Source: an uncultured Gammaproteobacteria bacterium (GTDB lineage: Bacteria; Pseudomonadota; Gammaproteobacteria; Chromatiales; Chromatiaceae). From it: a stretch of 64,000 nt of DNA. Location: NCBI GenBank assembly GCA_963780725.1, contig CAWACV010000001.1:2632346-2696345 (forward strand), written 5' to 3'. The position numbers were made by a program, and so were the translations under genes. Under the pieces are notes generated by a model. That model saw only the letters and a list, made by a program, of their open reading frames with translations. It ran no database searches and was not told the origin of the DNA. Below, piece after piece: positions 13,350 through 31,384 of this stretch. Numbering within the stretch: the stretch's first letter is position 1; each line of letters opens with the position of its first letter.

Positions 13350-13882
13350 GGCAGTCTCCCGGTTGGTCGTCGGATGGCATTAACCTATCTGCTAACTTGG
13401 TTTTTGACCAGTGGAATCGACGGGAAAGATCTTTGAGCGCTACGCAAGGATTAGGGCACCACGGAAGTCGGAACCCGAGTAGCCAAGGCCGAGGCGCCAT
13501 GCGACGGCTCCGGTGCCCAACCGGAGCGTCGTCATCGAAGACGCCCAAACTAGGGCTCCCATTCCGCTCGGATGCGCTTACCGGACAGCGAGGATATTCC
13601 GTGTACGAAGACCCGCACAGGCACCGAATTTCACCCGATGAACGGCAGATTTTCTCCGACTACCGAGAGAACCGTCTCACGCGCTGCACTTGCGGGAATG
13701 TTAGGCTTTGGGCGTCTACGCCTGAGCTCTCAGACTCGGGTTTGCTTTGTCGAAATGCGGCGATGCACGCCGGTTGACCGGGAGTTGGATCGCCCGAAGC
13801 CGCAGAAGAAGACCCCGCCTTAGAGCGGCTAGGCGACATCCGCTGGGACGCCAGTCCACTGTCCACCGAGGGATCGATCTAA

Positions 13883-16231
13883 GTGACGCCAATGCCGAGC
13901 ACCGAATCGAACATCGTACCCCTTCGTTCGCGCGCTTGGTCCGCAACCGATGCCGAGCGACATATCGCAGCTCCCTGGTCGGCGCGCCGCGGACCAAGCG
14001 CAGCCCTTGAGCTCGCGGGGGGACTCGCCCGTCTAGCCTGGACATCGCCGGACGACGGACGCGACGCGGATCACCTGCGCGAAGAGCTTGCTCGATTCCG
14101 CGATCTTTTCGAGCGCTTGCCGGTGGCGCTTCTGGTGACGGACCTTGGCGGCACGGTGCTGCGCGCCAATGCCACGGCGGTCGCGATTCTGCAACAGGAC
14201 TCTCGTAGCCTTGTGGGAGCCGCACTATCGGACCACATCGCGCCGGAAAGCCAGGCACCGCTCGCCGAGCATCTCAGGCTTCTAAGAACAGGCACCAGCC
14301 TCAATTATTGCGAGATCGAGCTTATCGGCAGCGCCGGGGATACGCGCCCGATTTGCCTCGCAACGCTGAATGTCGGCGAAACGACCGACGGCCCGCTACG
14401 CTCCGCACTGCTCGACATCAGCGGTCTTCGCGCCATGGAGGCCGGTCTTGCGCTCGCCGCCAGCGTCGTGGAGCACACATCCGATGGGGTGATGGTCACA
14501 GATGCGGATCATCGAATTATCGCCGTCAACCCTGCATTTACTGCAATCACTGGCTACTCTGCCCATGAGATGCTCGGGCAAGTGCCCACCGTTTTTCAGA
14601 CTGGCTCCAACAATAGCGGTTTAGAACAGGAGGTAACGAGCGCACTACACGAGCGGGGCTACTGGAGAGGGGAGATCCGCAGCCGCCGCAAGGGCGGCGA
14701 GTCGTATCCGGAATGGGTCAGCGTCAGCGAAATCCGCGACGATAATGGGCTCCCGGCGCACTATGTCTGTATATTTTCGGATATGACCTCGCAGGAGGAG
14801 GCGAAAGCCCAGCTCTTCCGACTCGCTTATTTCGACACCCTCACGGCCCTCCCAAACCGCATCAGTCTGCTTGAGCAGCTTAGCCTTGCGTTAACCGCCG
14901 CAAGACGAAACAAACACCTTCTCGGGGTGTTTTATCTCGACCTCGATCGTTTCAAAGAGGTGAACGATACACTCGGTCACGCGGTGGGAGACCAACTGTT
15001 GCGATTTATTGCGCAAGAGCTTAAGCAATTGGTCCGCCAAACGGATACGGTTGCGCGCTTGGGCGGAGACGAGTTCACTATCCTGGCTCCGGATCTGAAA
15101 CGCGATCAGGCTGCCGCACAGATCGCGACCAAAATCGTTCGCCACTTCGAGCAAACCCCCTTTTGCGTCGACGGACGAGAAATCTACATACGCGTCAGTA
15201 TCGGCATCTCCCTGTTCCCAAAGGACGCAGAAGACTCGGAGGGTCTACTGGAGTGTGCGGACGCTGCCATGTACGCAGCCAAGGCGGCCGGTCGTAGCGG
15301 CTTTCGTTTCCACTCGGCAGCGATCGGCGCCAGCTACCGAAAGGAAAACGCATTGGAATCCGAGCTGCACCATGCGCTCAGCCGCAACGAGCTGAGTCTG
15401 CTTTTTCAGCCCCAATTGTGCCTGCGCAGCTTCCGCATCGTTGGCTGCGAGGTGTCGATTGGCTGGGACCGTACGGGCAATGGCATTGTCGAGTCGGATG
15501 CCTTGCTCCCATTAGCGCGCAAGACCGAGCTCTTCGTCCCCTGCGAGCATTGGGCGATGCGCTCGCTCACTGAACAGATTGGCAAATGGCCGAGCCATAT
15601 TCTGAGCGATCTGCGGTTTTCGATCGACATCTCGCCGATGCAATTGCACCCAACTCACATGGAGTCGCTACTGCACCGTCTCGAGGCCCTTGGCGGAAAG
15701 ATTGGCCACAGACTCGAGTTGGAGATCCGAGAGTCCGACCTCATGGACTGCCCCACTCAGACACTGAATATGCTCACCCGTATCGGCGACTTCGGGACAC
15801 GGCTCGCCTTGGACCATTGGGGGGTCGGCCCCACCTCGCTTCGGCAGTTGAAGCAGTTACCACTGGGTCGTGTAAAGCTCGATCCGAGCATCGTTTGCGA
15901 CATCGAAACGGATCGCGAGTCCGCAAAGCTTCTTGCAGCGATTATCGCCGTCGCACATACCCTTAAGTTGGTTGTTCTTGCCGAAGGCGTAGAGACTGCG
16001 GGCCAACTGAAGATTCTCAGAGACCACGGGTGCGACGAGGCACAAGGCGCCTTGTTCAGCCCACCCCTCTCTGCGGACATGCTGTTGGCCACATTAGAGC
16101 AATCTTCCGAGAAACCGCTCGCGGGAAACGGCAGACCTGATATCCGCGCATTTCCAGGACAATCGAATGGTTTTTTCGCGAAGTTGGCGCGCGCATGCTT
16201 ACGTCGCGATGCCCACCGGTCGCTCCGCTAA
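13883..16231 (+). CDS. PAS-PAS-GGDEF-EAL protein (intact diguanylate cyclase motifs, degenerate EAL)
   Basis: Two PAS domains (VNPAFTAITGYS); DLDRFKEVNDTLGH, RQTD I-site and GGDEF; EAL reads EVS and DDFG reads DHWG. Start codon uncertain. Confidence 0.9.
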   Translation: MTPMPSTESNIVPLRSRAWSATDAERHIAAPWSARRGPSAALELAGGLARLAWTSPDDGRDADHLREELARFRDLFERLPVALLVTDLGGTVLRANATAVAILQQDSRSLVGAALSDHIAPESQAPLAEHLRLLRTGTSLNYCEIELIGSAGDTRPICLATLNVGETTDGPLRSALLDISGLRAMEAGLALAASVVEHTSDGVMVTDADHRIIAVNPAFTAITGYSAHEMLGQVPTVFQTGSNNSGLEQEVTSALHERGYWRGEIRSRRKGGESYPEWVSVSEIRDDNGLPAHYVCIFSDMTSQEEAKAQLFRLAYFDTLTALPNRISLLEQLSLALTAARRNKHLLGVFYLDLDRFKEVNDTLGHAVGDQLLRFIAQELKQLVRQTDTVARLGGDEFTILAPDLKRDQAAAQIATKIVRHFEQTPFCVDGREIYIRVSIGISLFPKDAEDSEGLLECADAAMYAAKAAGRSGFRFHSAAIGASYRKENALESELHHALSRNELSLLFQPQLCLRSFRIVGCEVSIGWDRTGNGIVESDALLPLARKTELFVPCEHWAMRSLTEQIGKWPSHILSDLRFSIDISPMQLHPTHMESLLHRLEALGGKIGHRLELEIRESDLMDCPTQTLNMLTRIGDFGTRLALDHWGVGPTSLRQLKQLPLGRVKLDPSIVCDIETDRESAKLLAAIIAVAHTLKLVVLAEGVETAGQLKILRDHGCDEAQGALFSPPLSADMLLATLEQSSEKPLAGNGRPDIRAFPGQSNGFFAKLARACLRRDAHRSLR

Positions 16232-16847
16232 AGGGCCCTAAGATGGCCCTTATGAAACCGAGCCAAGGTCAAGCACAAAATGTCAACCGCCCGCCGCGGG
16301 CATCCGAAATCAGCCGACAGCAAGGCGACCTGGACCGCTAAGCGGTATTGTGTTGCATCGAAGATTGCTTGCGATTACTATCGTGGGCGGTTTTTTGCAG
16401 ACTTAGGGGCCGCGTTTAGGTGCTCCAGCAATCCAGAGCCCGCGGTCCGCAAACACAGGTCCGCCGCAGTCGCTACGGAATATCGTCTCCCCCTGAAAAC
16501 GGACTCTGGTCTTATACCCGAGCACGGAATGCTTGCCCACCTGAGATTTAGGTTGAAAACCCTGGTGTAACCAGCTGAAACCTGTTGTACCATCGATCCT
16601 GTGAGCGACCGTATCCTCCCGGGCGAACAGCGAGCAGGGCCGCACGCGGCGCACACCGAGCAGCGTAATGCAGACCGCATCGAGGCTGCGGTCCTCCTGG
16701 CGAGCCGCTAGAGGCAGCATATGGTGCAAGACCGACTAATCGACGGTGCCCAAATCGGCAAAAACGCGATCGGCTTCAGTGCGGACCCCAGTATCGGTAA
16801 GCCGCCAACCGCAATGTCTTGTTGCGTGCCGTTGCTAATCAACCTTT

Positions 16848-17705
16848 TTGAATGCGGAGCCCACGATGATTCCTGGTCAAGCACATTTGGCCGCGCTTGC
16901 CCGCGCCTACCCGCAACGCGAGGTGAGTCGGTTTCTTTGTATCTTCGCGGACACCGAAGAAGCGAGGCAGCACCACTATGCATTGAGATATAAGGTTTTC
17001 TGCGAGGAAACCGGATTCGAGAATCCAGACGCATTTCCCGACCGAATCGAGCGGGATCGCTACGACGCTCACGCACGCCACTTCCTCGTTTGGGACCGTC
17101 ACGAGCACCAATGGGCTGGAGCCATGCGCCTCGTAGAAGCATCTTCGACCCGACTGCCTTCCGAAGAAATCGTGGGGGCTCCCTTACTGGGACTCGATGA
17201 GCGCCGACACCGCTCCGTAGAGTTTTCCCGGCTGTGCATTCTCAGTCAATACCGCCGAACGAACCAGTCGACCTTCTATGGACTCTACCGAACCGAGGGT
17301 CAGTATCCCCGCACAGCGTGTTCTGTTCTATACAGGCAGGAAGACAACGAGGTCCTTTTGCAATTACTCGGCGCGAGCTTTGGATGGCGACCGGAAATCG
17401 AGCACTGCTACTTTATAGTCACACCTGCTCTGGCGCGAGTGCTGAGCCGTTTCGGAATTCCTCTGAGGCAGGTGGGCGGACAAGTCGAGCATCGCGGAAC
17501 GCGCATCCCCTTCCAATACGATGTTCGGGAAGCCGAGCAAGGTATGCGCGAAACCCTTGCCGGTTTCGCATCGATGACAGAGGGATCGCGCCCCTTCGAA
17601 AAATATTCCGACTTTATCGATGGCAATCTCGATGACGAGATAGCGATTCGCGCCGTCGACTCCGATTGCTTTACGTCGGGGCAGCGCGTCGCCCACGTCC
17701 AATAG
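16848..17705 (+). CDS. PEP-CTERM/exosortase-associated acyltransferase (FeeM/N-acyl amino acid synthase-like GNAT), copy 1
   Basis: LRYKVFCEETGFE, ERDRYDAHARHFL, VEFSRLCI and VEHRGTRIPF. Start may be ATG 16866. Confidence 0.8.
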   Translation: MNAEPTMIPGQAHLAALARAYPQREVSRFLCIFADTEEARQHHYALRYKVFCEETGFENPDAFPDRIERDRYDAHARHFLVWDRHEHQWAGAMRLVEASSTRLPSEEIVGAPLLGLDERRHRSVEFSRLCILSQYRRTNQSTFYGLYRTEGQYPRTACSVLYRQEDNEVLLQLLGASFGWRPEIEHCYFIVTPALARVLSRFGIPLRQVGGQVEHRGTRIPFQYDVREAEQGMRETLAGFASMTEGSRPFEKYSDFIDGNLDDEIAIRAVDSDCFTSGQRVAHVQ

Positions 17706-18069
17706 TTGCCTAGCGCCGGGTTTTTCCGGCCGAGGGGTTGCCAGCGTGCACCGCCGTTCGCACTTGGCACCCCCTCTACTCCTGACTCCTTCCCACATCC
17801 GCCCGAGCTCACTCAAGTCTAATCGCGGGATCAGACGTTGGCGCGAGCGACAGGTGCCCCTGTATAGCTGCCTCGACCAGACAGTAGTCGTCGAGACGCA
17901 CGCGCCCAACATTTCGCTTTTCACGTTCGCCAGGCAGCCGAATTCTGGAAGCGGAAGTGCCACATCTTTGGGGATCATCGATCTATGTGACAAGCTTATC
18001 GGAACTGTTGTGCTACGTCGTCCATGCTTGGTCGTACGTCTTCGTTGCAACGTCCGAAGGGATCGATCC

Positions 18070-18453
18070 ATGGAGAAAAAAGCCTGCTCGAATTGCCGCT
18101 ACAGCAACAATCCTGTAGGCTACTCAAGCGCTGACGTGCCGAGCGAAAGCGACTGCCGCTGCCCCATACCGGGATTCCCGTGGCACATCTACCACCGGTA
18201 CCGGAGCCACGAAACCGTGATGCCCACCCTTTGCGGACACTATCAGCCAGTCAGTGCCGGAAGATGCGGCGAATGCGGCAAAGAACTTGGCCCGCAACAC
18301 TTGGTGAAATATTGGGCATGCGGGGTGTTTTCGGTGATCCCATGCTGCTCTACAGACTGCTTGGCGGCACAGCAGGGGCAGTTAGATGCGGAGCGCGACG
18401 CCCTACCTCCCGTCCAAGCCTCAACCGATCCGCAGCTACGGGCTTGTCACTAA
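18070..18453 (+). CDS. Small Cys-rich putative metal-binding protein (127 aa, TRASH/zinc-finger-like)
   Basis: ATG at 18070 with AAGGG upstream; 11 Cys including CSNC, CRC, CGEC and CCSTDC. Confidence 0.55.
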   Translation: MEKKACSNCRYSNNPVGYSSADVPSESDCRCPIPGFPWHIYHRYRSHETVMPTLCGHYQPVSAGRCGECGKELGPQHLVKYWACGVFSVIPCCSTDCLAAQQGQLDAERDALPPVQASTDPQLRACH

Positions 18454-19655
18454 CTGTCCCGCCCTAGATGTTGCGTCCCGGATGATTATTTCCCCCTGCG
18501 GATTTAAGGTGGCCCCATGACCAGGACAATTTCTCCCTTAATTTAGGCTGTGTTGGTGACATCGATTCCAGCACCTTGGCGCTGCCCCGGTCAGGGCCAC
18601 TGCCGACTCACCGCAAACGGTGGCGACCCCGCCTCCACGCAGGCCCGATCCATTCCCGCCGCAACCTCAACAGGCCCAACCCGGACTTTCTCTTGAGCCA
18701 ATCCAACTCGACGCGATTTAGCCGCGGCAGGAGTCGGAACATCGGATCACCGCAACGCATTGGGACTGCGCCTGTCCGACCACCCGGATCTTGAGCCGCC
18801 CGGACAGCCGCCAGCTTTTTACGTGTCCCGTGCATTACCGGAGCGGTTCCCTCGTGCTTAGCAGTCCCGCCAAGCAGCACCACGGGCCAAGATCAACCGA
18901 GTGCTGGACGACCTGCAAGGCATTTCGGCATCGCAAGAATTCCGGATGCCGAATCTCTGCCCGAGCTCTGGCGATTGGGAAACACACAACCGAAGGCACC
19001 GCGCTAGGCTATGCTTGTTCTCGCATAATCTTGACCGAAGCCAACGCAAGAATCTTTCGACGACTGGGGGGCTGAAGCGCACGAACCACTCGGAGCCTTG
19101 ATCCGAGCTCTGGTCACCCTTGACTAACGCTTGGACAAGTTTCGTACGCGGACCCTGGCCCCCGGTCCCCGCCGGAGGGAGGAACGACGATGGACGCCCG
19201 CGGCGCGGATTGGCAGGTGGTGGCGGATACAATAACCGATCCCCCACTCGGGTGTCTAAAAAGCTGTTGACAAAGCGTCTTTTCTCCATCGCTCTTTGTC
19301 TTTGTCGCGGGTTATCGACCAAGCTAAAGCACAGAGCAACCGCAACCTTGCGACAAAGTGATGCATATATCGGATTCTTACGGCCATCTAGCGTTGGCAC
19401 CCTCCGCACTCGCCTTTCCGATGCTGCCAATCCATGGCTACTCGGATTATCGGGTATTGATGACCCTATCCTTACTTGGGGTCTATTCAGACGCAGACTC
19501 CACCGACACCTATGAGCTTCGCATCTTCAGGCTTCACGACTCTTCAACAGCTCATACACCACTCCCGTGCCGCCCCCGGCTTCGCCAACAATCCACCACA
19601 TGGACATCGCCGGCGGTTGTGGTATTGGGGCAGCGATATGTGAAGGTTCCCATAT

Positions 19656-20531: not shown

Positions 20532-20546
20532 TCGAGGTGCGAGAAA

Positions 20547-21626
20547 ATGAGCAAGACCCTCAGCGACCGAATGACACGCATCCTGGATGCTGCTCGGTGG
20601 GCACCAAGCGGCGATAATACACAGCCCTGGCGATTCGAGGTGGAGGACGACGATACGGTAATTATACATGCATCGGACACCCGTCACTGGTGCGTCTACG
20701 ATCTGGAAGGCCATGCAAGCCAGATCGCAGTCGGTGCCCTTTTAGAGAACATCGTCATCGCCGCGTCCCGCGAGGAGTTGGAGACAGATCTGCGGCTGCT
20801 TCCCGACGGCACCGACACACATCCGCGAGTGCGTGCGCGCTTTCGGGCCTCCAACGCCATTACCCCAGATCCCTTATTTGAAATCATCGCGCAACGGTCA
20901 ACTCAAAGGCGCGCTCTGTCATGGTCCGCTCTTCGCCCCGCCGATCGAATGGCGCTTGAAGGCGCCCCGGGTCCCGGTTATCGTGTCTTCTGGGTGGAGG
21001 GTGTCCGCCAGAAGTGGCGCTTGGCAAGACTGTTGTTTCTCAATGCCTATATTCGCCTTACGATCGAAGAAGCATATCAGGTGCACAAGCGCATCATCGC
21101 ATGGGACTCAGGCTTTAGCGAGGACCGCATTCCCGATCGTGCGCTCGGCCTGGACCCTTTCGCATTGGCGATCATGAAATGGGCGATGGCCAGTTGGAGG
21201 CGAGTCAGCTTTATGAACCGATATCTGGGCGCGACTCTGCTTCCTCGTCTTGAGCTCGACGTGCTGCCGAGCATGGGTTGCGCAGCCCATTTTTTCATCG
21301 TCGCAGACAAGCCCCCGATCGAGCTTCAGGATTATTTCAACGGCGGCCGTGCCATGCAGCGCTTCTGGCTCACCGCAACCGCCCAGGGGTTACAGTTTCA
21401 ACCGCAAATGACGCCGATAATATTCTCTGAGTATACGAAGCGGTCGCTCCCGTTCACTGCAAGCGCCGAGGCGCGAAGACAGGCCGCCCGACTGAGGGCC
21501 GGCCTGTGCGAGCTCATTGGCGAATCGGTGCTCGACCGTGTCGTGTTTGCTGGTCGCGTCGGCTACGGTCCCCAGCCTCGCTGGCGCTCCCTGCGGCTTC
21601 CGCTGCCGCGGCTGCGCGCAAGCTAG
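20547..21626 (+). CDS. Nitroreductase-fold flavoprotein
   Basis: AARWAPSGDNTQPWRF, RSTQRR and GRAMQRFWLTATAQGLQFQP; own SD (GAGG). Confidence 0.88.
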   Translation: MSKTLSDRMTRILDAARWAPSGDNTQPWRFEVEDDDTVIIHASDTRHWCVYDLEGHASQIAVGALLENIVIAASREELETDLRLLPDGTDTHPRVRARFRASNAITPDPLFEIIAQRSTQRRALSWSALRPADRMALEGAPGPGYRVFWVEGVRQKWRLARLLFLNAYIRLTIEEAYQVHKRIIAWDSGFSEDRIPDRALGLDPFALAIMKWAMASWRRVSFMNRYLGATLLPRLELDVLPSMGCAAHFFIVADKPPIELQDYFNGGRAMQRFWLTATAQGLQFQPQMTPIIFSEYTKRSLPFTASAEARRQAARLRAGLCELIGESVLDRVVFAGRVGYGPQPRWRSLRLPLPRLRAS

Positions 21627-21679
21627 AGCCGCAGGCTGACACACTTTTCTCGGAAGCGAACTAAAAAGGTATTGCTCTT

Positions 21680-24592
21680 ATGATTCGCAGGTTTGCAGCA
21701 GCGTTTATTGTCCGACACACAGGCTTAACCCTTGCCACTGCGTTTTTAATGGCGTCTTGTGGACAGGAGACTGGTTCTGCGCCTCAGGTGCAGCCGAATA
21801 CCCGGAGCTCGGCCAGCACAGCCCCCGCCAGCGCGCCGTTAACTAAATCGAGCGCCTTGGATCAGGCGGCAGCCATGGAGAAGTCAGGACGGATTGATGT
21901 CGCATTGAGCATGTACAAGCAGGTCTTGGAGGAGGATCCGCACAATACGACTGTTCGGGCACGGCTGGGGCACCTGTATCTCGCTGTCGGCAACGGGCAG
22001 TCCGCTGTCAAGGAGCTTCTGCGGGCGACGGAAACGGGCACGCCAATCAGCGAGGTGGCTGTCGATCTCGCACGCGCCCGCCTGATGGGCGAGCAGTACG
22101 GCGATATGGTTAGCCCCTCGGCAGATGCCTCGTTGGCAGAGATCGACGCGATCGAAGGTCTACCTCCAGCCGATCATGCAAAGCTCCAGGCTCTGACCGG
22201 ACACGCCTTCTTACTCGATAACCGACCCGACGAGGCCGAAGCGCTGTACGCTGCGGCATTGCTCAGCCAACCGGATGAGCCTGAAGCACTTTACGGCCAG
22301 GCGATGCTTGCCGGAGAGCGACAGGACCCCGATACGGCAAGATCGCTGGTCAAGCGAGCCCTGGAGCTCGATCCGAGTCTGGCGGCAGCGTGGAGCTTTT
22401 TGGCACAGGTCGAACGATCCCGCGGCGATTCGAAGGCCGCGGAGACTGCCCTTTCCGAGGCGATTGAGCGCCGCGACAACAACTCAGCCGATATCTTCGA
22501 GAGGGGTACCATACGAGTGGCGTTAGGCAACGTAACAGGTGCCCTCGAGGACGCAAAGCAACTCGAGTCAACCGCCCGAGGCTCCGCATTTGCAGCGTAC
22601 CTGCGAGGTTTGGTCGCATTCTCCCAAAAAGACTACAAATGGGCTGACGAGCAATTCCAACTCGCGCTCTCGAAGAACCCGGCATTCATGCCGGCCGTGC
22701 TGCACGAGGGACTGACGGCAGCAGCTTTGGGGGCTCCGGAGCAGGCTCGCGAGCTGCTTATGAGGTATTCATCCGCGTTTCCTAACGACATCCCAGCCCT
22801 TAAGGCGCTGTCGAAGGTCGAGCTTCGGCTGCGCAACTTCAAGTCCGCGGGGGATCTTGCCGAACGCGCCGCAACGTTAGATACAGAGGACACAGAGTCC
22901 CTGGAAATTCTTGCCTCGGCACGATTCGCCGCCGGCCAGCTCGTGGAAAGCGCTGCGGCAGTAGAGCGCCTTGCGGCAGCCAATCCGAATTCGTCGGTAA
23001 TCCTGGAGAAGCTCGCTACCGTCTACGCTGCGCAAGGTAATAGCGAGGCTGCCAAACAGGCAGCGGCTCGCGCAAAGCAAATCGAGCAGGAGGAGCGCAC
23101 CGGTCCGCCCAAGACCTCTGCCGACGAATTGGTAAAGGCAGGAAAATTGGACGAAGCCTTGAGTGCCATGCAACGCCTGGCGCAGGCCGATCCGAACAAT
23201 GCCGACATCCAGGTGGCCCTCGCGCGCGTCCTTTTGGCCCGCAAAGAAACTGCCGACGCCGGGTCGGCGCTTCGCCGCGCCGCGAAACTCGATCCCCACC
23301 ACGCCCCGGCCGCGGCTGGTCTAGCTCAGCTTGCCATTTCCCGCGGCGCACTCGACGAAGCGATAGGTTACCTCGAGCCGATCATCCAGCATCAGCCTGG
23401 CAATCTCCAACTGGGTCTGGTTTTTGTCGATCTATTGAATCGCCTTGATCAAACGGACCGTGCGCTGATGACCCTGGAAGAGTTAATCCGCAACAACCCG
23501 ACCGCGTGGCAACCCCGAGCGTCCTTGGCACGTTATTGGCGAGAGCATGGCGACGCGCAAAAGGCCTTGGCACTTCTCGCACAGATCGCCGAGCCTGATG
23601 CACATAATCCACTCGTCTTAACGGAATTGGGAGAAGATCAGCTTGCAATCGGCGATGCCCGAAGTGCGGTAAAGACTTTCGAGCGCCTGACGACTCAGGC
23701 TCCCAATGTTGGCAACTCCCATTACCTGCTTGCCAGGGCACGTTATGCAGCGGGGCTGGCGAAGGAAGGCCGGTTGGCGCTATCGGATGCGGTCAAGCTC
23801 GATCCCGGACATGTGGTGGCCAAGGTCGCCCTTGCTCGCGCCATGCTAGCCGAGCAGAATTCGCAGGGTGCCTCCAAACTGGTTGCCGAGTTGGAGCGGA
23901 CAGACCCGGAGCGAGCAGACGTTCTTGCCCTTAAGGCGGCCTTGGCGGTTAGGGAGCAGCGTTTCGACCTCGCGGTGGCCGCGTACGAGGCGTCGCTTGC
24001 GAAGTCGCCGATTAACGGCACCGCACTGAACCTGGCATTGGCTCGTGTCGCCGCTGGCGATCCGGATGGGGCGATTCATGGGCTGGAGGACTGGCTTCTA
24101 AAGCACCCGAAAGACAATGCAGTTAAAATGCGCCTTGGACATCTGGCCTTCGCTCTGGGACGATCGGAGCTCGCAAAGCAGCACTATCTTGATTTATTCA
24201 AGAATGGCGCGAGGGACCCCGTCATGAGCAGCCACCTGGCGTTGTTGTCGCTCCAAGGGGCTGACCCGAAAATGGCGCTTGCTCATGCCAAGCAGGCGAC
24301 AGCGCTTGCGCCGACATCGGCCAGTGCACTAGAAACGCTCGGGCTGGTAGAGATGAATCTGCAACAGTACGACGCTGCCGCTGATGCCTTCGAATCTGGG
24401 ATCGCTGCGGCACCGGAAAACCGCTCCTTACACTACTTCCGGGCCGCTGCGCTGGCCGCCATGGGAAAACTCAAGGAAGCAGACACAGCCTTGACTCAAG
24501 TGCTTTCAAATGGCGTCGCGTTCCCCGAATTGGCCCAGGCCAAGGCACTTCAGGCAAGAATTCATGCGCTCATCGATGCGGGACAGGAGTAG
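21680..24592 (+). CDS. prsT: PEP-CTERM system TPR-repeat lipoprotein PrsT-like
   Basis: Lipobox LMAS-C; ~970 aa of TPR repeats; RARLGHLYLAVGNGQSAVKEL resembles the PrsT N-terminus; PEP-CTERM gene nearby. Confidence 0.75.
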   Translation: MIRRFAAAFIVRHTGLTLATAFLMASCGQETGSAPQVQPNTRSSASTAPASAPLTKSSALDQAAAMEKSGRIDVALSMYKQVLEEDPHNTTVRARLGHLYLAVGNGQSAVKELLRATETGTPISEVAVDLARARLMGEQYGDMVSPSADASLAEIDAIEGLPPADHAKLQALTGHAFLLDNRPDEAEALYAAALLSQPDEPEALYGQAMLAGERQDPDTARSLVKRALELDPSLAAAWSFLAQVERSRGDSKAAETALSEAIERRDNNSADIFERGTIRVALGNVTGALEDAKQLESTARGSAFAAYLRGLVAFSQKDYKWADEQFQLALSKNPAFMPAVLHEGLTAAALGAPEQARELLMRYSSAFPNDIPALKALSKVELRLRNFKSAGDLAERAATLDTEDTESLEILASARFAAGQLVESAAAVERLAAANPNSSVILEKLATVYAAQGNSEAAKQAAARAKQIEQEERTGPPKTSADELVKAGKLDEALSAMQRLAQADPNNADIQVALARVLLARKETADAGSALRRAAKLDPHHAPAAAGLAQLAISRGALDEAIGYLEPIIQHQPGNLQLGLVFVDLLNRLDQTDRALMTLEELIRNNPTAWQPRASLARYWREHGDAQKALALLAQIAEPDAHNPLVLTELGEDQLAIGDARSAVKTFERLTTQAPNVGNSHYLLARARYAAGLAKEGRLALSDAVKLDPGHVVAKVALARAMLAEQNSQGASKLVAELERTDPERADVLALKAALAVREQRFDLAVAAYEASLAKSPINGTALNLALARVAAGDPDGAIHGLEDWLLKHPKDNAVKMRLGHLAFALGRSELAKQHYLDLFKNGARDPVMSSHLALLSLQGADPKMALAHAKQATALAPTSASALETLGLVEMNLQQYDAAADAFESGIAAAPENRSLHYFRAAALAAMGKLKEADTALTQVLSNGVAFPELAQAKALQARIHALIDAGQE

Positions 24593-24712
24593 ATACGGAG
24601 TTGGGAATATTGGAACCTACCGAAAGCGAGCCGCGGATACCTCGAGCCCGTTGGCTAACGGCCTTCGATGCGGAAACAAGACGGACTCGCCTACTTAAGA
24701 CCCTGGTGTAAG

Positions 24713-25936: not shown

Positions 25937-26016
25937 CGAAACTTGCGCGTCCCGCCATCATCGGCCCGAACGACGCCAGCTCCGCTGGGCCAACGATCAA
26001 ATAACCGGAGATATTT

Positions 26017-26670
26017 GTGATCCCGAATCGACGCCTATCCTCTCCCGAATCAACGGATTGGACCAGATACTATCGAAAGCACGACGTCCCCGAGTTTATC
26101 GTTAACGCGCTACTCAAAGAATATCTGCTGTGCATAAGAAAATACTGCAACAAGACCCATGGGCTCACAATCGCGGAAGTGGGCGGAGCGGACAGTTGTT
26201 TCTTCGCAACACTGGACCGAGAGCTCGACATCGACAAGTATATCGTAGTAGACAACAACGAATACGGACTTGAGCTTACCCGAGAGAAGGTGAAATCGGA
26301 TAAGCTCTCCTTAATGTACGGCAGTATCTTTAACGCACATGCACTGAATGTGTCGGCCGACATCGTTATTAGCGGCGGACTCATTGAGCACTTCGCCCCC
26401 GAGGAAACCAGGCAAAGCATCCTCGGACACTTCTCTTTGGCTGCACCCGGCGGATTAGTCGTCATCTCTTGCCCCACTCCAACATGGATCTATTGGTCGT
26501 TTAGGTCCCTGCTCGAGTCGATCGGAAAATTTCCGCCGGTATTCGAGCGTCCGTTGAAACTGGACGAGGTCACAACCGTACTCCAGGAGAAGGGCAGTCT
26601 GGTCGCTGCCTACCGGCTCTGGACGACGATCCTCACCCAAATGATTACGGCAACTCAGAACGTCCGATAA
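26017..26670 (+). CDS. Class I SAM-dependent methyltransferase
   Basis: AEVGGADS motif I, VVDNN, DIVISGGLIEHF and APGG. Confidence 0.8.
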   Translation: MIPNRRLSSPESTDWTRYYRKHDVPEFIVNALLKEYLLCIRKYCNKTHGLTIAEVGGADSCFFATLDRELDIDKYIVVDNNEYGLELTREKVKSDKLSLMYGSIFNAHALNVSADIVISGGLIEHFAPEETRQSILGHFSLAAPGGLVVISCPTPTWIYWSFRSLLESIGKFPPVFERPLKLDEVTTVLQEKGSLVAAYRLWTTILTQMITATQNVR

Positions 26671-26717
26671 TACACTGCTAGATGCGTTTCACTCGCCAAG
26701 CAGAACTCGTGCGCAAC

Positions 26718-26750
26718 AAAAAAGCCCCCGAGACGATCGTCTCGGGGGCT
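26718..26750 (-). terminator. Rho-independent terminator of the PEP-CTERM gene
   Basis: Perfect 28-bp palindrome AGCCCCCGAGACGATCGTCTCGGGGGCT (26723-26750) followed by a T-run on the minus strand. Confidence 0.85.
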
Positions 26751-26782
26751 ACGCTATCGAGCACCCGGCTAAGTTTTTTGGA

Positions 26783-27682
26783 TTATGCCTTGCGCCGACG
26801 GGCAGCGGCCCCGATCAGACCGAAAGAAGAGGCCATGAGCAGCAGCGTAGTAGGCTCTGGAACCGCGAAGGTCTCGGCCGCGGTGATGGAGAAGACCTGA
26901 CGCCCACCGCCGGCAGTCGGGGTACCGTCCCACATCACAGCGGGACGGAGATTTTGCAGTGGCTGAGTGAGGTTTCCGGCGATGCGCATGCTAAGCAGCT
27001 TACCGCCGGTTCCATTATTCACCGGCAGGTTGTCGAGATTGAGATAGGCGCCGTTATAGTCTGTAATTTCGAACAGCAGATCGAAGGCACCAGTACCTGT
27101 ACCTGGAATAATGGCGGTAAAGGAGGACACGTTACTGACCAACGTGGCCTCGAGAATGTTCGTACCGTTACCGAAGCCAGAGACTGTACCAGCTCCACTG
27201 CCGCTCACCGCCTTACCGCCGTCGGACAGATCGTCATAGTAGAGCGTCAGGTTCGGCGTCGATGTCTGTCCGCCGACTGGGTCGACGAATGTCACCGTAC
27301 CCCCTCCGAAGGCATTTGGCGTAAAGTCGAACACCACGTCGTCGAAGCGGACGGTCTTAGTCAGCTCGAAGGCTCCAGCGGCCCCGTTGTTTCCGTTCAG
27401 CCCAGGCACGCTGACGATCGAGCCATCAGCCGTCAACGAAGCAACCACAAACTGGGTGACGAAGGTGTGCACATCCCCGACCACAAAAGGCGGCCCTACG
27501 CCCAAATCGACGCCCGTGGCGGCAGCATCGGACCAGATGTCGGAAAAGATCCAACCGCCGGCGCCAGCGCCGCCGGTCGGGTCAAGGCCGATCGTTGGCT
27601 GCGGAACGGCCAATGCGTTTCCGGCGATGGCCATACCGACGACGGCCGCCAGGCTTGCCGCAAGGGACGAATATTTAGTCAT
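26783..27682 (-). CDS. PEP-CTERM sorting-domain surface protein (possibly PepA-like)
   Basis: ATG at 27682 with AGGAG SD; signal peptide ending ALA; Gly/Thr/Asp/Phe-rich beta-type body; C-terminal VPEP + TM + RRRK. Confidence 0.92.
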   Translation of the reverse strand: MTKYSSLAASLAAVVGMAIAGNALAVPQPTIGLDPTGGAGAGGWIFSDIWSDAAATGVDLGVGPPFVVGDVHTFVTQFVVASLTADGSIVSVPGLNGNNGAAGAFELTKTVRFDDVVFDFTPNAFGGGTVTFVDPVGGQTSTPNLTLYYDDLSDGGKAVSGSGAGTVSGFGNGTNILEATLVSNVSSFTAIIPGTGTGAFDLLFEITDYNGAYLNLDNLPVNNGTGGKLLSMRIAGNLTQPLQNLRPAVMWDGTPTAGGGRQVFSITAAETFAVPEPTTLLLMASSFGLIGAAARRRKA

Positions 27683-27800
27683 GACGAAAACTCCTGGTAA
27701 ATTTAAGGGTGTTCGCTCTACCGACGGCGAAGGCAACCTAATTATCTCGTTCGACAGCAATGACAAGATTGCCGCTCTGGCGAACTTGTCGCTTAAGGTA

Positions 27801-27816
27801 AGCAAAGCATGTGCCA
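27801..27816 (-). promoter_or_regulatory. Sigma-54 (-24/-12) promoter of the PEP-CTERM gene
   Basis: Minus strand TGGCAC-ATGCT-TTGCT is an exact match to TGGCAC-N5-TTGCW. Confidence 0.85.
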
Positions 27817-27889
27817 TAAATAAAATATTTTTATAAAACAGACTTTTATATACTATCGAGCAATGTGCGCTACCGAGGCGACCGATGAA

Positions 27890-27908
27890 GTGTAAAAAAT
27901 ATTGACAC
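27890..27908. promoter_or_regulatory. Putative enhancer (PrsR-type activator site) upstream of the sigma-54 promoter
   Basis: Imperfect palindrome GTGTAAAAAATATTGACAC ~75-90 bp upstream of the -24 box, separated by an AT-rich (IHF-like) tract. Confidence 0.6.
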
Positions 27909-28676
27909 CGGCGGGGCTCAAAGCCTTCGAACTGCTCCGAACCATCCATCGAGACGAGCGATCTTGCGAACCATACGGTAAGGTCCCAGGGATGCGACTC
28001 GACCGGACCCCGAAATTTCGACGATAAGCAATCTTGCGCATTAGATAAGGATTAAAGAAAGACGGGCGAAGCGAAGCGCAAGACCGACACGGCGGCCTTC
28101 GCAGCCATAAGCGGGCTTGGTGGAGATCCGGGGGAACGGGCTCGGGCAGGACCGCGGGGGCCACCCGGTGCAGGTCGGGCGGTGGAAGCGGGAGATCCAA
28201 GGGCAGACCGAGTCGCCGCTCGCGAAGAAGTGCGAGCCGATAATGGAAGGTGGCCCCGCGGATGGGACCGGCTGTACTGCAGGACCGACAGGTGCAAGGT
28301 CGAGGTGGGCTGGTTGCAAAAGGTCCGGGCTAAGCCCGTTAATATCTGGCGCGCCACCCGCAGCTGGCGTGCATCCCGATCCTAACCCACACCGCAGCGG
28401 CATCCGATCGGCAGGTCTGTTATAAAGAGCAGATAAGCCAAGGAAAAACTGTATGTATGTCGGGGGATTTATCTGCAGCACTCGGCAGCCACACATAACA
28501 GGCAATTACCGGCGCGGAATACCGCCGATGCCCCGTTTCTTGGAGTCGGCCCAAGATGTCGGGGCTTCGCAGAATCCGCATCGAGCCTTCCCGTGCTCCC
28601 CCACCTTGCAGCGACGCACCCCGATGCAAGGCGCGAGCCGTGGGTAGTTCTGCGGTGCATCGCCGATCATGACGAG

Positions 28677-29537
28677 ATGAATCTCATGTATTACCGTTTG
28701 GTAGCCAAAAACCGAATTTTCGAAGCCAACCGGACCATCGTCGAGTACGAAATCCGTCCGGGCAACACCGTCACCTTCGTTGCCGAGGTGGACCTCACGC
28801 AGGTACAGCGTCTTCGCACGACCCAAGAGGCATCCAAAGCATCTTATACCGCTTTCGTGGTCAAAGCGGTCGCCTTAGCGCTGCGGCGCTACCCCTATGC
28901 CAATCGACGGGTCTGCAGACGCGGATGGTGGCCGTTCGCAGGGCACTGCCTACAAGCATTCGAGCGCTGCGATATCGCCGTGGCCGCGGAGCGCGACATT
29001 CCGGACATCGAATACTGCGCCTTCGTGGATATCGTCCGCGATGCCGACGGCGCCGGTCTATCCGACATCGACCGACAGTTGAGCGCGCTGGCCACCTGCG
29101 ACGTCCATACGAACGAGCAGTGGCGATCCTTCAGCGGTGTGGTGACACGATTTCCGCACTGGCTGTCTACCCACCTTATTCGCTTGCCTTACTACTTTCC
29201 CGGATTTTGGCTTAAATTCAGGGGCGCGTCTGTCCTGATCAGCTCTCCGGCAAAATACGGTGTCGATAGTGTGGTGGCAACATGGAGCTGGCCGCTGGGG
29301 GTATCTTTCGGATTCGTGAAGGACCGCCCCGTCGTCCGGGACGGCGCCGTCGTTCCCTGCCCCACCTTCAATCTGGTGGTGAATTTCGACCGCCGGGTGA
29401 TGGCAGGCGCGCAGGGTGCGCGCTTCTTTCGCGAGATTGTCCGGATACTGGAGAGCGCCGAGTCCGAGATGGCAGCTTTTTTGCGGGAGTCTGGTACGGA
29501 GACGACCGCGAAGGACCCCGCAGCGACAGGGAAGTAG
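28677..29537 (+). CDS. Stand-alone 2-oxoacid dehydrogenase E2-type acyltransferase catalytic domain
   Basis: EVDLT, SYTAFVVKAVALAL..YPYAN, DIAVA, VKDRPVVRDG and FDRRVMAGAQGARF; no lipoyl domain. Start uncertain. Confidence 0.75.
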   Translation: MNLMYYRLVAKNRIFEANRTIVEYEIRPGNTVTFVAEVDLTQVQRLRTTQEASKASYTAFVVKAVALALRRYPYANRRVCRRGWWPFAGHCLQAFERCDIAVAAERDIPDIEYCAFVDIVRDADGAGLSDIDRQLSALATCDVHTNEQWRSFSGVVTRFPHWLSTHLIRLPYYFPGFWLKFRGASVLISSPAKYGVDSVVATWSWPLGVSFGFVKDRPVVRDGAVVPCPTFNLVVNFDRRVMAGAQGARFFREIVRILESAESEMAAFLRESGTETTAKDPAATGK

Positions 29538-29721
29538 AATATGGTCACCCAGTCGCCGCGCGATGCTAACCTGCCCGTCCGGACTCGACGTTAACGCATA
29601 AGCCGGAGGGGACGCCCATCTCCAGCGGCCACCCGGCACAGCGGCGACTCTGTCGGGCCGAGCCGAATGTCGTGTCCTGCCGGAACCTCCGACGGGGTTG
29701 CCAGACCAGTCGTCGGAATCG

Positions 29722-30495
29722 CTAGGGTTCGCTCGAATTTACGCCCCTCTCGAGCTCGCTGGAAATCCAGCAATAGAGCTCGCGCAGTTCCGGCGCCATA
29801 TCCCGAACGAACTCGCGCGTATCCGTGACATAGACGGCGCGGATGCCGTGATGATCCACATCCCGCCCCATACGACGGAAGACCATTCCCGAACGCTTCA
29901 ACAGCCGGGGCAGGAACGGCTCCATGACAGCGAACATGTAAGGTCGCTGCAACAGCTCCGCCATTGCGTTGCCGGCAAGCATCAGGGCCACAGAGATCAG
30001 GGGAAAGGTCCGGCGCTCGCTGTCCGAGAGGCTTAAGGAAGCGATCTCGCCGAAACGAGTCAGCGACTCGCCGGAGCGACGCCGGAATGCGCCGTCCACG
30101 GCAAATCGAGATGCCTCGCAGATCATATCGCGGGGCGCTGTAAAATCTGCCATTGCGACAGGATCCAGGCTTGCGGTGCAACACTTTTCATAAGGGAGCG
30201 GCTGGGCTACGCCATTCGCCGAGGCAGAGCACATACGAACGCATCCGGCTGCCATTCCCGATGCGACATGGACAATCAGACAGTGGGCGGACATATCGTC
30301 GAGCTCGTCCGTTTCCATGCGATCCGGGAAGCGGTCCGCGGGCTCGTATCCGAATTCTTCGCAATACACCCGGTAGCGTATCCGATAGGTCTCCTGACAA
30401 TCGCGACTCGTGAGTGCCTGACGAACCGCGAAGTACCGCTGGAAATAATCGAGTGGTTGCTTGGATTCTACCATTGTCTTGGGCCGGTCATTCAC
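29722..30495 (-). CDS. PEP-CTERM/exosortase-associated acyltransferase (FeeM-like GNAT), copy 2
   Basis: IRYRVYCEEFGYEP, ETDELD..SAHCLI, CEASRFAVDGAFRRRSGE, MEPFLPRLL and DHHGIRA. Confidence 0.88.
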   Translation of the reverse strand: MNDRPKTMVESKQPLDYFQRYFAVRQALTSRDCQETYRIRYRVYCEEFGYEPADRFPDRMETDELDDMSAHCLIVHVASGMAAGCVRMCSASANGVAQPLPYEKCCTASLDPVAMADFTAPRDMICEASRFAVDGAFRRRSGESLTRFGEIASLSLSDSERRTFPLISVALMLAGNAMAELLQRPYMFAVMEPFLPRLLKRSGMVFRRMGRDVDHHGIRAVYVTDTREFVRDMAPELRELYCWISSELERGVNSSEP

Positions 30496-30706
30496 CCTGA
30501 AGTCAAGCGATCAAGCCAGGTAAATCGCTGTATCTCAGAGAGATCAGTGTAAACCGGACTTCCGCACATCGCCGGACGGGTATTGGTTAGATCCGCTACG
30601 CAGTCGCGCCGACACCGGTAAGCTTAGCTTGCCACGCAGCTCCAGTGGACTGCATCCGTCGGATCTCGGGTCAATGCATTGCCGAGACCAACGCCCAAGA
30701 CCCGCT

Positions 30707-31186
30707 CTAGCTTCGGGGTCCCGAGAGACCCGAGGGCCTGGAACCGATTGTGACCAACTCCACCACTCCACGATTGGCTCTGGCAAGATTATCCAGCGCC
30801 ACATCCAAGAGACACTTGAAAAACAAGTAACCTTCTTTCGGGTGGTCGTCCAGATACACTGCCAGCATGGCCCCATTGATCTCTAGGGTGCTCCCCTCGG
30901 TGAGTGCGCGCACGGTCGCAATACTTTCGTAGGGAGCGAGCAGGGAAGACTCGCCGAACACACTGCCCTCGGTCAACACGGCAACAGTCACTTCGACACT
31001 CGACCGATCCGGGAGCTGGACCCGCCCCAGAACAGCGAGCCTGCCGCGCTGTATCGCAAACAGCGATTGGCCTCGGGTGCCCTGGGCCGTTAGAAGCTCG
31101 CCCGGCACAAACTCGCGCCGAACCCAGGCAACGCCTTCGGCGAGTCTGGGCTGACGCAGTAGCTCTTCGATTAACCGTAAGATCAT
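30707..31186 (-). CDS. Stand-alone cyclic-nucleotide-binding domain protein
   Basis: GELLTAQG, LFAIQRG, GSVFGESSLL and ATVRA; no HTH. Start 31186 or 31216. Confidence 0.75.
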   Translation of the reverse strand: MILRLIEELLRQPRLAEGVAWVRREFVPGELLTAQGTRGQSLFAIQRGRLAVLGRVQLPDRSSVEVTVAVLTEGSVFGESSLLAPYESIATVRALTEGSTLEINGAMLAVYLDDHPKEGYLFFKCLLDVALDNLARANRGVVELVTIGSRPSGLSGPRS

Positions 31187-31384
31187 TGTTGTAATTGACC
31201 TTATGTCTGCAAACAAGGCCGGGCGGTCCCTACTTCAGGCATCGCAGGATATCCCCGCAAGCCTCTCAAGCTCAATAACCCGATCGCGGCCTGGGCGCGA
31301 AGGGCCACAGTTGGCCGCTGGAATGCGACTTTCGCTCGCTGCGAGCAAGAGCAAGTCGCGATCCCGCGGCCATACACACGAGAC

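What the first reader, a model, noticed from the sequence alone, without database searches (positions are those of the whole stretch)
13400..31380. Candidate undescribed system: N-acyl-amino-acid/oxazolone (glyco)lipid pathway built into a PEP-CTERM surface-protein locus
Seen: one block that looks more A/T-rich than its flanks. It holds two FeeM-like acyltransferases, the co-oriented run ThiF-nitroreductase-prsT-GT1-methyltransferase, a convergent sigma-54 PEP-CTERM gene, an E2-type acyltransferase domain, a diguanylate cyclase, a cNMP-binding protein and a Cys-rich small protein. Known: an N-acyltransferase (OxzA) plus a ThiF-nitroreductase (OxzB) make acyl oxazolones from N-acyl amino acids; PEP-CTERM/PrsT systems accompany EPS and floc formation; the role of exosortase-associated acyltransferases is unresolved. 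Inference, three alternatives: (a) a glycosylated/methylated oxazolone or lipo-amino acid is a signal controlling aggregation; (b) it is the lipid anchor or modification for PEP-CTERM proteins, since acyl-adenylates and oxazolones are activated acyl donors; (c) it is a matrix biosurfactant. No exosortase, PrsK/PrsR or integrase is in the window.
Basis: partly seen in the sequence, partly recalled or inferred. Interest (0 to 1): 0.82.

Follow-up and report, generated by a model that had tools for sequence, protein, structure and literature searches.

The report
Sugar-tailored oxazolone lipid gene cluster
This variable chromosomal block carries a split copy of a known pathway that likely turns fatty-acylated aromatic amino acids into oxazolone-type lipids, plus a sugar transferase and an unusual acyltransferase-fold protein lacking its usual catalytic histidine, which together are predicted to put an acylated sugar on that lipid; it sits among surface-protein (PEP-CTERM) genes, but a role as their anchor is unlikely.

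Summary
All listed genes are real. The block is low in GC (0.590 against 0.661) and fills a variable slot that is empty in 5 of 17 genus relatives. Exosortases and prsKRT lie elsewhere in the genome. The core (two exosortase-associated acyltransferases, ThiF, nitroreductase) is a split oxzAB/tyz-type pathway. Its link to PEP-CTERM genes is published, and this scan reported it before on other DNA. The less-known part is the tailoring module. The stand-alone E2-fold protein has Arg for the catalytic His (107 of 115 family rows). It lies with this GT1 family in 18 of 19 well-flanked loci and is fused to it elsewhere as E2-GT-methyltransferase and GT-nitroreductase-E2. A GT homologue follows a tyrosine-isonitrile synthase. 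Best reading: a myxotyroside/hyellamide-like phenol-glycosylated, sugar-acylated N-acyl-dehydrotyrosine or tyrazolone envelope lipid. The protein-anchor idea is chemically disfavoured, and the diguanylate cyclase is probably not part of the module. No product was shown. New variant of a known kind.

The parts
16848..17705 (+). Exosortase-associated acyltransferase 1 (ExoAT; predicted N-acyl amino acid synthase)
   Evidence: TIGR03694 147.5 bits, cut-off 111.95; PF21926 FeeM
18070..18453 (+). Cys-rich 127-aa protein, function unknown
   Evidence: No Pfam or NCBIfam hit (on the longer frame); homologues beside an ExoAT in L008, L009, L066, L165
19656..20531 (+). ThiF-type adenylating cyclase (OxzB N-half / TyzB-like)
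   Evidence: PRK08223 398.3, cut-off 266; 58-67% identical to the N-half of 16 fused ThiF-nitroreductase proteins
20547..21626 (+). Flavin-dependent desaturase, nitroreductase family (OxzB C-half / TyzC-like)
   Evidence: Rv1355c and Acg family hits under their cut-offs; 49-57% identical to the C-half of the same 16 fusions
21680..24592 (+). PrsT TPR lipoprotein, second copy in the genome
   Evidence: TIGR02917 494.4, cut-off 312.2; the other copy lies in the prsKRT locus on C3
24713..25936 (+). GT1 natural-product glycosyltransferase, predicted phenol O-glycosyltransferase
   Evidence: PF06722; best solved relative CalG1, E 5e-29; 40% identical to the GT directly after a Tyr/Trp isonitrile synthase; invariant His24
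26017..26670 (+). Class I SAM methyltransferase, variable accessory gene
   Evidence: Weak Pfam hits; 11 proteins at E<=0.001 counting itself, one fused to GtrA; none in fetched loci
26723..26750 (.). 12-bp hairpin terminator between the convergent methyltransferase and PEP-CTERM genes
   Evidence: T-run on the minus strand
26783..27682 (-). PEP-CTERM surface protein, 299 aa, rich in Gly/Thr/Ser
   Evidence: TIGR02595 and PF07589 over cut-off; start placed from the signal-like N-terminus and the promoter
27802..27816 (-). sigma-54 -24/-12 promoter
   Evidence: Perfect match
27891..27907 (-). PrsR-type enhancer box (motif 1, ending TTTACA), 74 nt upstream of the sigma-54 site
   Evidence: spacing within the 32-92 nt range in PMC1569441
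28686..29537 (+). Stand-alone E2/CAT-fold protein with DRRVMAG in place of DHRxxDG, no lipoyl domain
   Evidence: PF00198 only; E2 fold; Arg at the His position in 107 of 115 rows; linked and fused to the GT
29722..30495 (-). Exosortase-associated acyltransferase 2
   Evidence: TIGR03694 214.3, cut-off 111.95
30707..31216 (-). cNMP-binding protein, likely regulator of acyltransferase 2
   Evidence: PF00027; directly upstream of an ExoAT in 11 of 13 stand-alone homologues, six FeeM-cNMP fusions
13883..16231 (+). PAS-GGDEF-EAL protein; inside the low-GC block but probably not part of the pathway
   Evidence: orthologue (937 bits) at the same site in G650 without lipid genes

Best explanation
The block likely makes a small glycolipid: the two acyltransferases are predicted to join a fatty acid to an aromatic amino acid (probably tyrosine), ThiF and the nitroreductase would cyclise and desaturate it to an oxazolone (or its ring-opened dehydro acid), the GT1 would glycosylate the phenol, and the His-less E2-fold protein and the methyltransferase would likely acylate and methylate the sugar. 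Shown here: gene identities, the split ThiF/nitroreductase matching fused proteins end to end, tight GT-E2 linkage and fusions, the His-to-Arg change, the PrsR/sigma-54 promoter on the PEP-CTERM gene. Inferred from characterised relatives: N-acylation, cyclisation, desaturation. Inferred from context only: tyrosine as head group, phenol glycosylation, the E2-like protein as sugar O-acyltransferase, cNMP control of acyltransferase 2. The product is most likely an envelope or matrix lipid made alongside exopolysaccharide and PEP-CTERM proteins (about 55:30 over a diffusible signal), not a covalent anchor.
For: Core; chemistry of OxzAB and Tyz/Trz. GT travels with the core: 11 of 20 genome GT loci have ThiF or nitroreductase, 9 an acyltransferase. 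E2-like with GT: 41 of 79 metagenome loci overall, 18 of 19 with at least 2 kb on both sides, 29 of the 41 within 60 bp; ThiF or nitroreductase in 13 of 19; after collapsing at 70% identity, 17 of 23 clusters with a locus of 5 kb or more have the GT. Fusions: E2-GT-methyltransferase and AMP-ligase-GT-methyltransferase; GT-nitroreductase-E2 (P0257; GT 39%, E2 48% identical to the window's). GT acceptor type: homologue after a Tyr/Trp isonitrile synthase (rhabduscin logic), another annotated PGL/p-HBAD glycosyltransferase. DAHP synthase beside the cluster in G147, G180 and others. Other GT loci carry a hexapeptide acyltransferase instead (8 of 22; E2-like 4 of 22; both 0), as in the hyellamide proposal. 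Precedent compounds: myxotyrosides, hyellamide. Exporters (MMPL/RND) near 15 of 58 family ThiF loci.
Against: No product or activity was measured. P. rubra OxzB itself was not compared. The catalytic His is absent, so the E2-like protein may not be an enzyme. Exclusion of E2-like and hexapeptide genes is weak: 0 overlaps in 22 loci is compatible with chance, and 1 of 79 E2 loci has both. Five GT loci of one genus (L153-L157) have no pathway gene nearby, and 10 of 22 have neither acyltransferase type. The nitroreductase in fusion P0257 is the second, distant paralogue type (25% identity). The methyltransferase has no homologue in any fetched locus. The block has no exporter or NDP-sugar gene of its own. 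The head-group amino acid is not determined. The metagenome scan used patterns containing the RR motif, so those loci are biased; one search is the unbiased count.
Confidence: 0.6

Rival explanations
1. Same glycolipid, but the His-less E2-fold protein is a non-catalytic partner: a carrier for the reactive lipid or an activator of the GT, like the dead-P450 activators of DesVII/EryCIII (analogy recalled).
For: His is replaced by Arg and the following Asp mostly by Ala, Gly or Thr; adjacency and fusion to the GT; tandem multi-copy forms (L078, P0252); a helical insertion absent from canonical E2.
Against: The GT occurs without it in 18 of 22 genome loci and the family was not found in 399 class genomes searched. 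The Ser/Thr at the E2 oxyanion position is kept in 96 of 120 rows and a new K-Y-G motif is conserved. TIGR04516 (activator-dependent GT) scores 51 against a cut-off of 440.
Confidence: 0.15
2. The GT, methyltransferase and E2-like protein decorate the glycans of PEP-CTERM proteins or the exopolysaccharide, separately from the oxazolone lipid.
For: PEP-CTERM or PrsT in 13 of 20 GT loci, slightly more often than ThiF or nitroreductase (11 of 20); the PEP-CTERM protein is rich in Ser/Thr; one methyltransferase homologue is fused to GtrA.
Against: Solved relatives are small-molecule GT1 enzymes; fusions join the GT to an AMP-ligase and to a nitroreductase; a homologue sits in a tyrosine-isonitrile cluster.
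Confidence: 0.1
3. The activated acyl-amino acid (adenylate or oxazolone) becomes the covalent anchor or modification of exosortase-processed PEP-CTERM proteins.
For: Strong linkage: 25 of 35 well-flanked ThiF loci have PEP-CTERM or PrsT; an ExoAT mutant of Methylomonas LW13 loses its polysaccharide band; I found no paper naming the XrtA anchor (listing, passages).
Against: In the sortase-like model the protein C-terminus is the acyl donor and needs a nucleophile; rhombosortase and archaeosortase substrates receive glycerophosphoethanolamine or a prenyl-derived lipid. oxzAB alone yields free oxazolones, and the pathway works in mycobacteria. The ThiF family is in only 54 of 200 family genomes; whether the others have exosortase was not tested.
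Confidence: 0.07
4. The block is a recombination hot spot that collected unrelated surface and lipid genes, with no joint function beyond the core.
For: The site is empty in 5 of 17 relatives and holds different cargo in G650; gene order differs among relatives; the E2-like gene of G147 is only 54% identical. True for the cyclase and possibly the methyltransferase.
Against: GT, E2-like, ThiF and nitroreductase recur together in distant metagenome loci and as fusions.
Confidence: 0.08

Closest known systems
OxzA/OxzB oxazolone synthetase (de Rond et al., bioRxiv 10.1101/2020.06.11.147165); TyzABC and TrzAS of mycobacteria (PMC12856293)
   Same: N-acyltransferase + ThiF + nitroreductase; ThiF-first order; the paper notes that some oxzB genes cluster with glycosyltransferases.
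   Different: Here ThiF and nitroreductase are separate genes, there are two TIGR03694-type acyltransferases, and GT, methyltransferase, E2-like, cNMP and PEP-CTERM/PrsT genes are added. No direct sequence comparison with OxzB was possible.
Stieleriacine / thalassotalic acid / kyonggic acid clusters (PMC12479983, PMC7293339)
   Same: NAS + ThiF + nitroreductase + methyltransferase; a PEP-CTERM gene inside the Stieleria maiorica cluster.
   Different: No glycosylation or E2-like gene in the parts read; products are non-glycosylated N-acyl dehydrotyrosines.
Exosortase-associated acyltransferases, TIGR03694 (Craig, Cherry and Brady 2011; paper not held, seen through citing passages)
   Same: Both acyltransferases pass the family cut-off and lie next to PEP-CTERM genes.
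   Different: The downstream tailoring module is not mentioned in the citing passages I saw.
Hyellamide (PMC11959600) and myxotyrosides (via PMC2854365)
   Same: Glycosylated N-acyl tyrosine-derived lipids; hyellamide carries an O-acetylated sugar on the phenol, with a GT and an LpxA-like acetyltransferase proposed.
   Different: Hyellamide uses an SGNH acyltransferase and a FeeG-type decarboxylase, not ThiF/nitroreductase; no sequence comparison with HyeH was made; no myxotyroside gene cluster turned up in my search.
Dihydrolipoamide acyltransferase (E2) catalytic domain, PF00198
   Same: Fold (Foldseek E 2e-13, TM about 0.6) and the Ser/Thr position.
   Different: No lipoyl or binding domain; His to Arg; second Asp lost; helical insertion of about 17 residues relative to the SucB-type control; neighbours are lipid-tailoring genes; a canonical E2 lies elsewhere in the genome.

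Membership tests
ExoAT (TIGR03694) | Score above the curated cut-off | tested here: met
   147.5 and 214.3 against 111.95
ExoAT (TIGR03694) | N-acyl amino acid synthase activity | not testable with these tools
   Needs expression and LC-MS
OxzAB pathway | ThiF and nitroreductase fused in one polypeptide | tested here: not met
   Two ORFs 15 nt apart; they map end to end on 16 fused homologues, so the arrangement is the split, Tyz-like one
OxzAB pathway | N-acyltransferase gene in the cluster | tested here: met
   Two ExoAT genes, the nearer 1.95 kb upstream of ThiF
OxzAB pathway | Orthology to characterised OxzB | not tested
   No OxzB sequence available through the tools; no solved structure matched beyond generic ThiF/TcdA
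OxzAB pathway | ATP-dependent oxazolone formation | not testable with these tools
   Biochemistry required
XrtA/PEP-CTERM system | PEP-CTERM sorting domain | tested here: met
   TIGR02595 19.8 against 16; PF07589 27.1 against 20.7
XrtA/PEP-CTERM system | PrsT | tested here: met
   TIGR02917 494.4 against 312.2
XrtA/PEP-CTERM system | Motif 1 plus sigma-54 site upstream of the PEP-CTERM gene | tested here: met
XrtA/PEP-CTERM system | Exosortase, PrsK and PrsR in the genome | tested here: met
   PF09721 twice; TIGR02916 and TIGR02915 over cut-off on C3
E2 dihydrolipoamide acyltransferase | PF00198 catalytic-domain fold | tested here: met
E2 dihydrolipoamide acyltransferase | Catalytic His of DHRxxDG | tested here: not met
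   DRRVMAG; Arg in 107 and His in 4 of 115 rows; SucB-type controls show DHRIIDG
E2 dihydrolipoamide acyltransferase | Lipoyl domain(s) | tested here: not met
   283 aa, PF00198 only
GT1 natural-product glycosyltransferase | EryCIII-like C domain and N-terminal His | tested here: met
   PF06722 48 against 31.7; His24 invariant in 22 sequences (its catalytic role is recalled)
Activator-dependent GT (TIGR04516) | Score above cut-off | tested here: not met
   51.3 against 440
Hyellamide (hye) cluster | FeeG-type decarboxylase and SGNH acyltransferase | tested here: not met
   No such Pfam hit among the 12 block proteins scanned
Genomic island | Atypical composition and an empty site in relatives | tested here: met
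Genomic island | Integrase or att repeats | tested here: inconclusive
   No convincing terminal repeat among those listed; no integrase search was run

The most novel reading that the evidence does not exclude
The His-to-Arg E2-fold family is a new class of acyltransferase that takes the ThiF-made oxazolone itself as its activated acyl donor, opening the ring onto a sugar or amine acceptor. With the GT it would build acyl-dehydrotyrosyl glycoconjugates, possibly on the surface glycans of the PEP-CTERM proteins, which would explain why these lipid genes follow the exosortase system.
Probability: 0.12. Interest if true: 0.85.

Novelty: new variant of a known kind. Interest (0 to 1): 0.5.

Why it matters
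The role of N-acyl amino acid and oxazolone lipids, and the reason their genes follow PEP-CTERM loci, are open questions. This block gives a compact test case. If the reading holds, it supplies a gene cluster type for myxotyroside-like glycolipids and assigns a function to an E2-fold family (108 clusters at 50% identity with E<=1e-30) that databases label as a dehydrogenase subunit although it lacks the catalytic histidine. It would show either His-independent chemistry or a pseudo-enzyme role in this fold.

Tried and rejected
Complex prediction of GT with the E2-like protein: no verdict. RNA runs: no RNA holder listed. Plasmid search: no E2-like match, two GT matches. The protein atlas gave no answer for the Cys-rich protein; for a stored E2-like homologue it returned only other stand-alone PF00198 clusters. 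Craig 2011 could not be read. The PEP-CTERM regex gave unconfirmed calls: 14 of 75 candidates had no PEP-CTERM family hit at E<=1e-5 and were dropped before the counts. My methyltransferase profile found no homologue in fetched loci. The GT tree is a quick tree of 55 near-full-length rows, partial ones left out; E2-linked and hexapeptide-linked GTs interleave but many forks are open, so it is not used as evidence of order or donor. Sigma-70 and terminator counts are at chance level. Rejected: the E2-like gene as a housekeeping E2 (canonical copy elsewhere); the cyclase as a fixed member; a self-contained sorting system (exosortases are on other contigs). Literature searches that found no description of the GT/E2-like pairing; the library lacks most subscription papers, and the de Rond supplements, which may list such clusters, were not seen.


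Full report
Observation. Both acyltransferases pass TIGR03694, ThiF passes PRK08223, PrsT passes TIGR02917, and the convergent gene carries a PEP-CTERM domain. The methyltransferase is only weakly supported, and the Cys-rich ORF has no family. The block has GC 0.590 against 0.661 (sd 0.019) for 18-kb windows of the contig. The PEP-CTERM gene has a perfect sigma-54 site and, 74 nt upstream, the 17-base box described in PMC1569441 (passages); 5 of 313 sigma-54-like sites in the genome have that box. The sorting machinery is elsewhere in the genome: two exosortases, a prsK-prsR-prsT locus with the TIGR03013 sugar transferase and six PEP-CTERM matches.

The site. The flanks (pirin/CDGSH on the left, DUF1269 on the right) were searched in 17 genus relatives. 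They are adjacent within about 350 bp in 5 (G775, G776, G718, G772, G773). G650 has 8.5 kb of other cargo that includes an orthologue of the cyclase and no lipid gene. Eight have ExoAT or ThiF genes at one or both flanks (G777, G042, G651, G633, G628, G685, G675, G147), and three are unresolved. The block is therefore a variable slot, and the cyclase travels independently.

The core. ThiF and the nitroreductase align end to end with 16 fused ThiF-nitroreductase proteins at 58-67% and 49-57% identity, which is the domain order of OxzB. De Rond et al. (part 2 of 5 and one passage) showed that OxzA makes N-acyl tyrosine and OxzB makes tyrazolones with ATP, and noted clustering with glycosyltransferases. 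PMC12479983 (parts 1-2 of 5) describes NAS + ThiF + nitroreductase, some with a methyltransferase, in producers of N-acyl dehydrotyrosines. PMC7293339 (passages) reports a PEP-CTERM gene inside such a cluster and cites Craig 2011, which I could not read. The PRK08223 family is in 54 of 200 family genomes. Of 58 loci fetched around it, 34 have PEP-CTERM or PrsT, 31 a nitroreductase, 28 an ExoAT and 4 this GT; among the 35 with 5 kb on both sides the counts are 25, 16, 17 and 1 (after dropping 14 of 75 unconfirmed PEP-CTERM candidates). Kin are not independent, so these are descriptions, not tests. Seven earlier notes of this scan report the same linkage in other genomes. The core is thus a known kind.

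The glycosyltransferase. It is a GT1 whose best solved relative is CalG1 (that CalG1 glycosylates an aryl hydroxyl is recalled). The family is sparse: 5 of 399 class genomes and 15 of 300 order genomes. Of 20 genome loci, 11 have ThiF or nitroreductase, 9 an acyltransferase, 13 PEP-CTERM or PrsT, 4 a GMC oxidoreductase and 3 an NDP-sugar epimerase; five loci from one genus have none. A 40%-identical homologue directly follows a Tyr/Trp isonitrile synthase on a Burkholderia stagnalis plasmid, the arrangement that gives the glycosylated tyrosine derivative rhabduscin (PMC6386379, passages). Another is annotated as a PGL/p-HBAD glycosyltransferase and lies with FeeM and nitroreductase hits. Glycosylated N-acyl tyrosine lipids exist: myxotyrosides (PMC2854365, passages) and hyellamide (PMC11959600, parts 1-2 of 4). 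I infer phenol O-glycosylation.

The E2-fold protein. It is 283 aa, has only the catalytic domain, folds like E2 (mean pLDDT 72.6, Foldseek E 2e-13) and reads DRRVMAG where controls read DHRIIDG. In a profile search without word bias, the His position is Arg in 107 and His in 4 of 115 aligned rows, drawn from the best 150 hits; Ser or Thr is kept at the oxyanion position in 96 of 120, and Lys190, Gly192 and Trp200 are conserved. The few named close relatives are planctomycetes, and none was found in 399 class genomes. In 79 metagenome loci the GT is present in 41, in 18 of 19 with 2 kb flanks, and within 60 bp in 29 of 41. L078 encodes an E2-GT-methyltransferase fusion, an AMP-ligase-GT-methyltransferase fusion and three more E2-like copies. 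P0257 is a GT-nitroreductase-E2 fusion. A divergent subfamily (WNRELxNG) also lies with the GT in G715, G774 and G775. Among 22 genome GT loci, 8 have a hexapeptide acyltransferase, 4 the E2-like gene and none both; this fits replacement of one sugar acyltransferase by another but is within chance. I favour sugar O-acylation, with a non-catalytic helper role as the main rival.

Other genes. The cNMP protein lies directly upstream of an ExoAT in 11 of 13 stand-alone homologues, and six FeeM-cNMP fusions occur; NasP is activated by cAMP (PMC4897644, passage), so a regulatory role is likely. The Cys-rich protein lies beside an ExoAT in all four loci where a homologue was found. The methyltransferase is rare and may be incidental, although other methyltransferases follow or are fused to the GT.

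Relation to PEP-CTERM proteins. The linkage is strong, and an ExoAT mutant of Methylomonas LW13 loses its polysaccharide band (PMC11072679, passages), so a role in surface or matrix formation is plausible. A covalent anchor is less so: the processed protein provides the carboxyl, known anchors are ethanolamine-bearing or prenyl lipids (bioRxiv 10.1101/2023.06.07.544157, passages), and free oxazolones are made by the pathway alone. Lipid exporters next to 15 of 58 ThiF loci point to an exported lipid; this block has none of its own. PMC12596934 and PMC12856293 were seen as passages.

Verdict. The core and its PEP-CTERM link are known. The GT plus His-less E2 tailoring module did not appear in my searches or in earlier scan notes for this sequence; one note describes a different His-less E2 family. 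All chemistry is inferred. New variant of a known kind, interest 0.5.

Noticed in passing
L078:884-12537: Metagenome cluster with AMP-ligase-GT-methyltransferase and E2-GT-methyltransferase fusions, three more E2-like genes (one keeps His: DHRLMTG) and a GMC oxidoreductase; it looks like an assembly line for a multiply acylated glycolipid.
   Followed up: partly
P0257 and P0252: A GT-nitroreductase-E2-like triple fusion (1107 aa) and a protein of three tandem E2-like domains (852 aa).
   Followed up: partly
L090, L135, L150, L161, L009, L069 and others: A second, distant nitroreductase paralogue (45-105 bits against the window's) recurs in these clusters, sometimes beside a fused ThiF-nitroreductase; its role is unexplained.
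   Followed up: no
L016, L018, L021, L035, L037, L039-L042, L044-L047: Many family ThiF genes have no nitroreductase within the fetched stretch, several beside MMPL exporters.
   Followed up: no
L164:4355-13506: Burkholderia stagnalis plasmid cluster with two isonitrile synthases, this GT family, an 811-aa protein without Pfam hit, a methyltransferase and a UbiA prenyltransferase: a candidate rhabduscin-like pathway.
   Followed up: partly
window 13883-16231: The cyclase keeps GGDEF but its EAL motif looks degenerate (read by eye), so it is probably cyclase-only.
   Followed up: no
window 18454-19655 and 27683-28685: Long intergenic stretches (1.2 kb and 1.0 kb) upstream of ThiF and between the PEP-CTERM and E2-like genes; no promoter was identified for the ThiF run.
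   Followed up: partly
G000:C1:2885190, C1:2888405, C1:2746028, C4:91396: Four further PrsR-box plus sigma-54 sites in the genome; the genes they control were not examined.
   Followed up: no
L153-L157: A clade of this GT in one genus without any pathway gene nearby, next to ApbE in two of five loci.
   Followed up: partly
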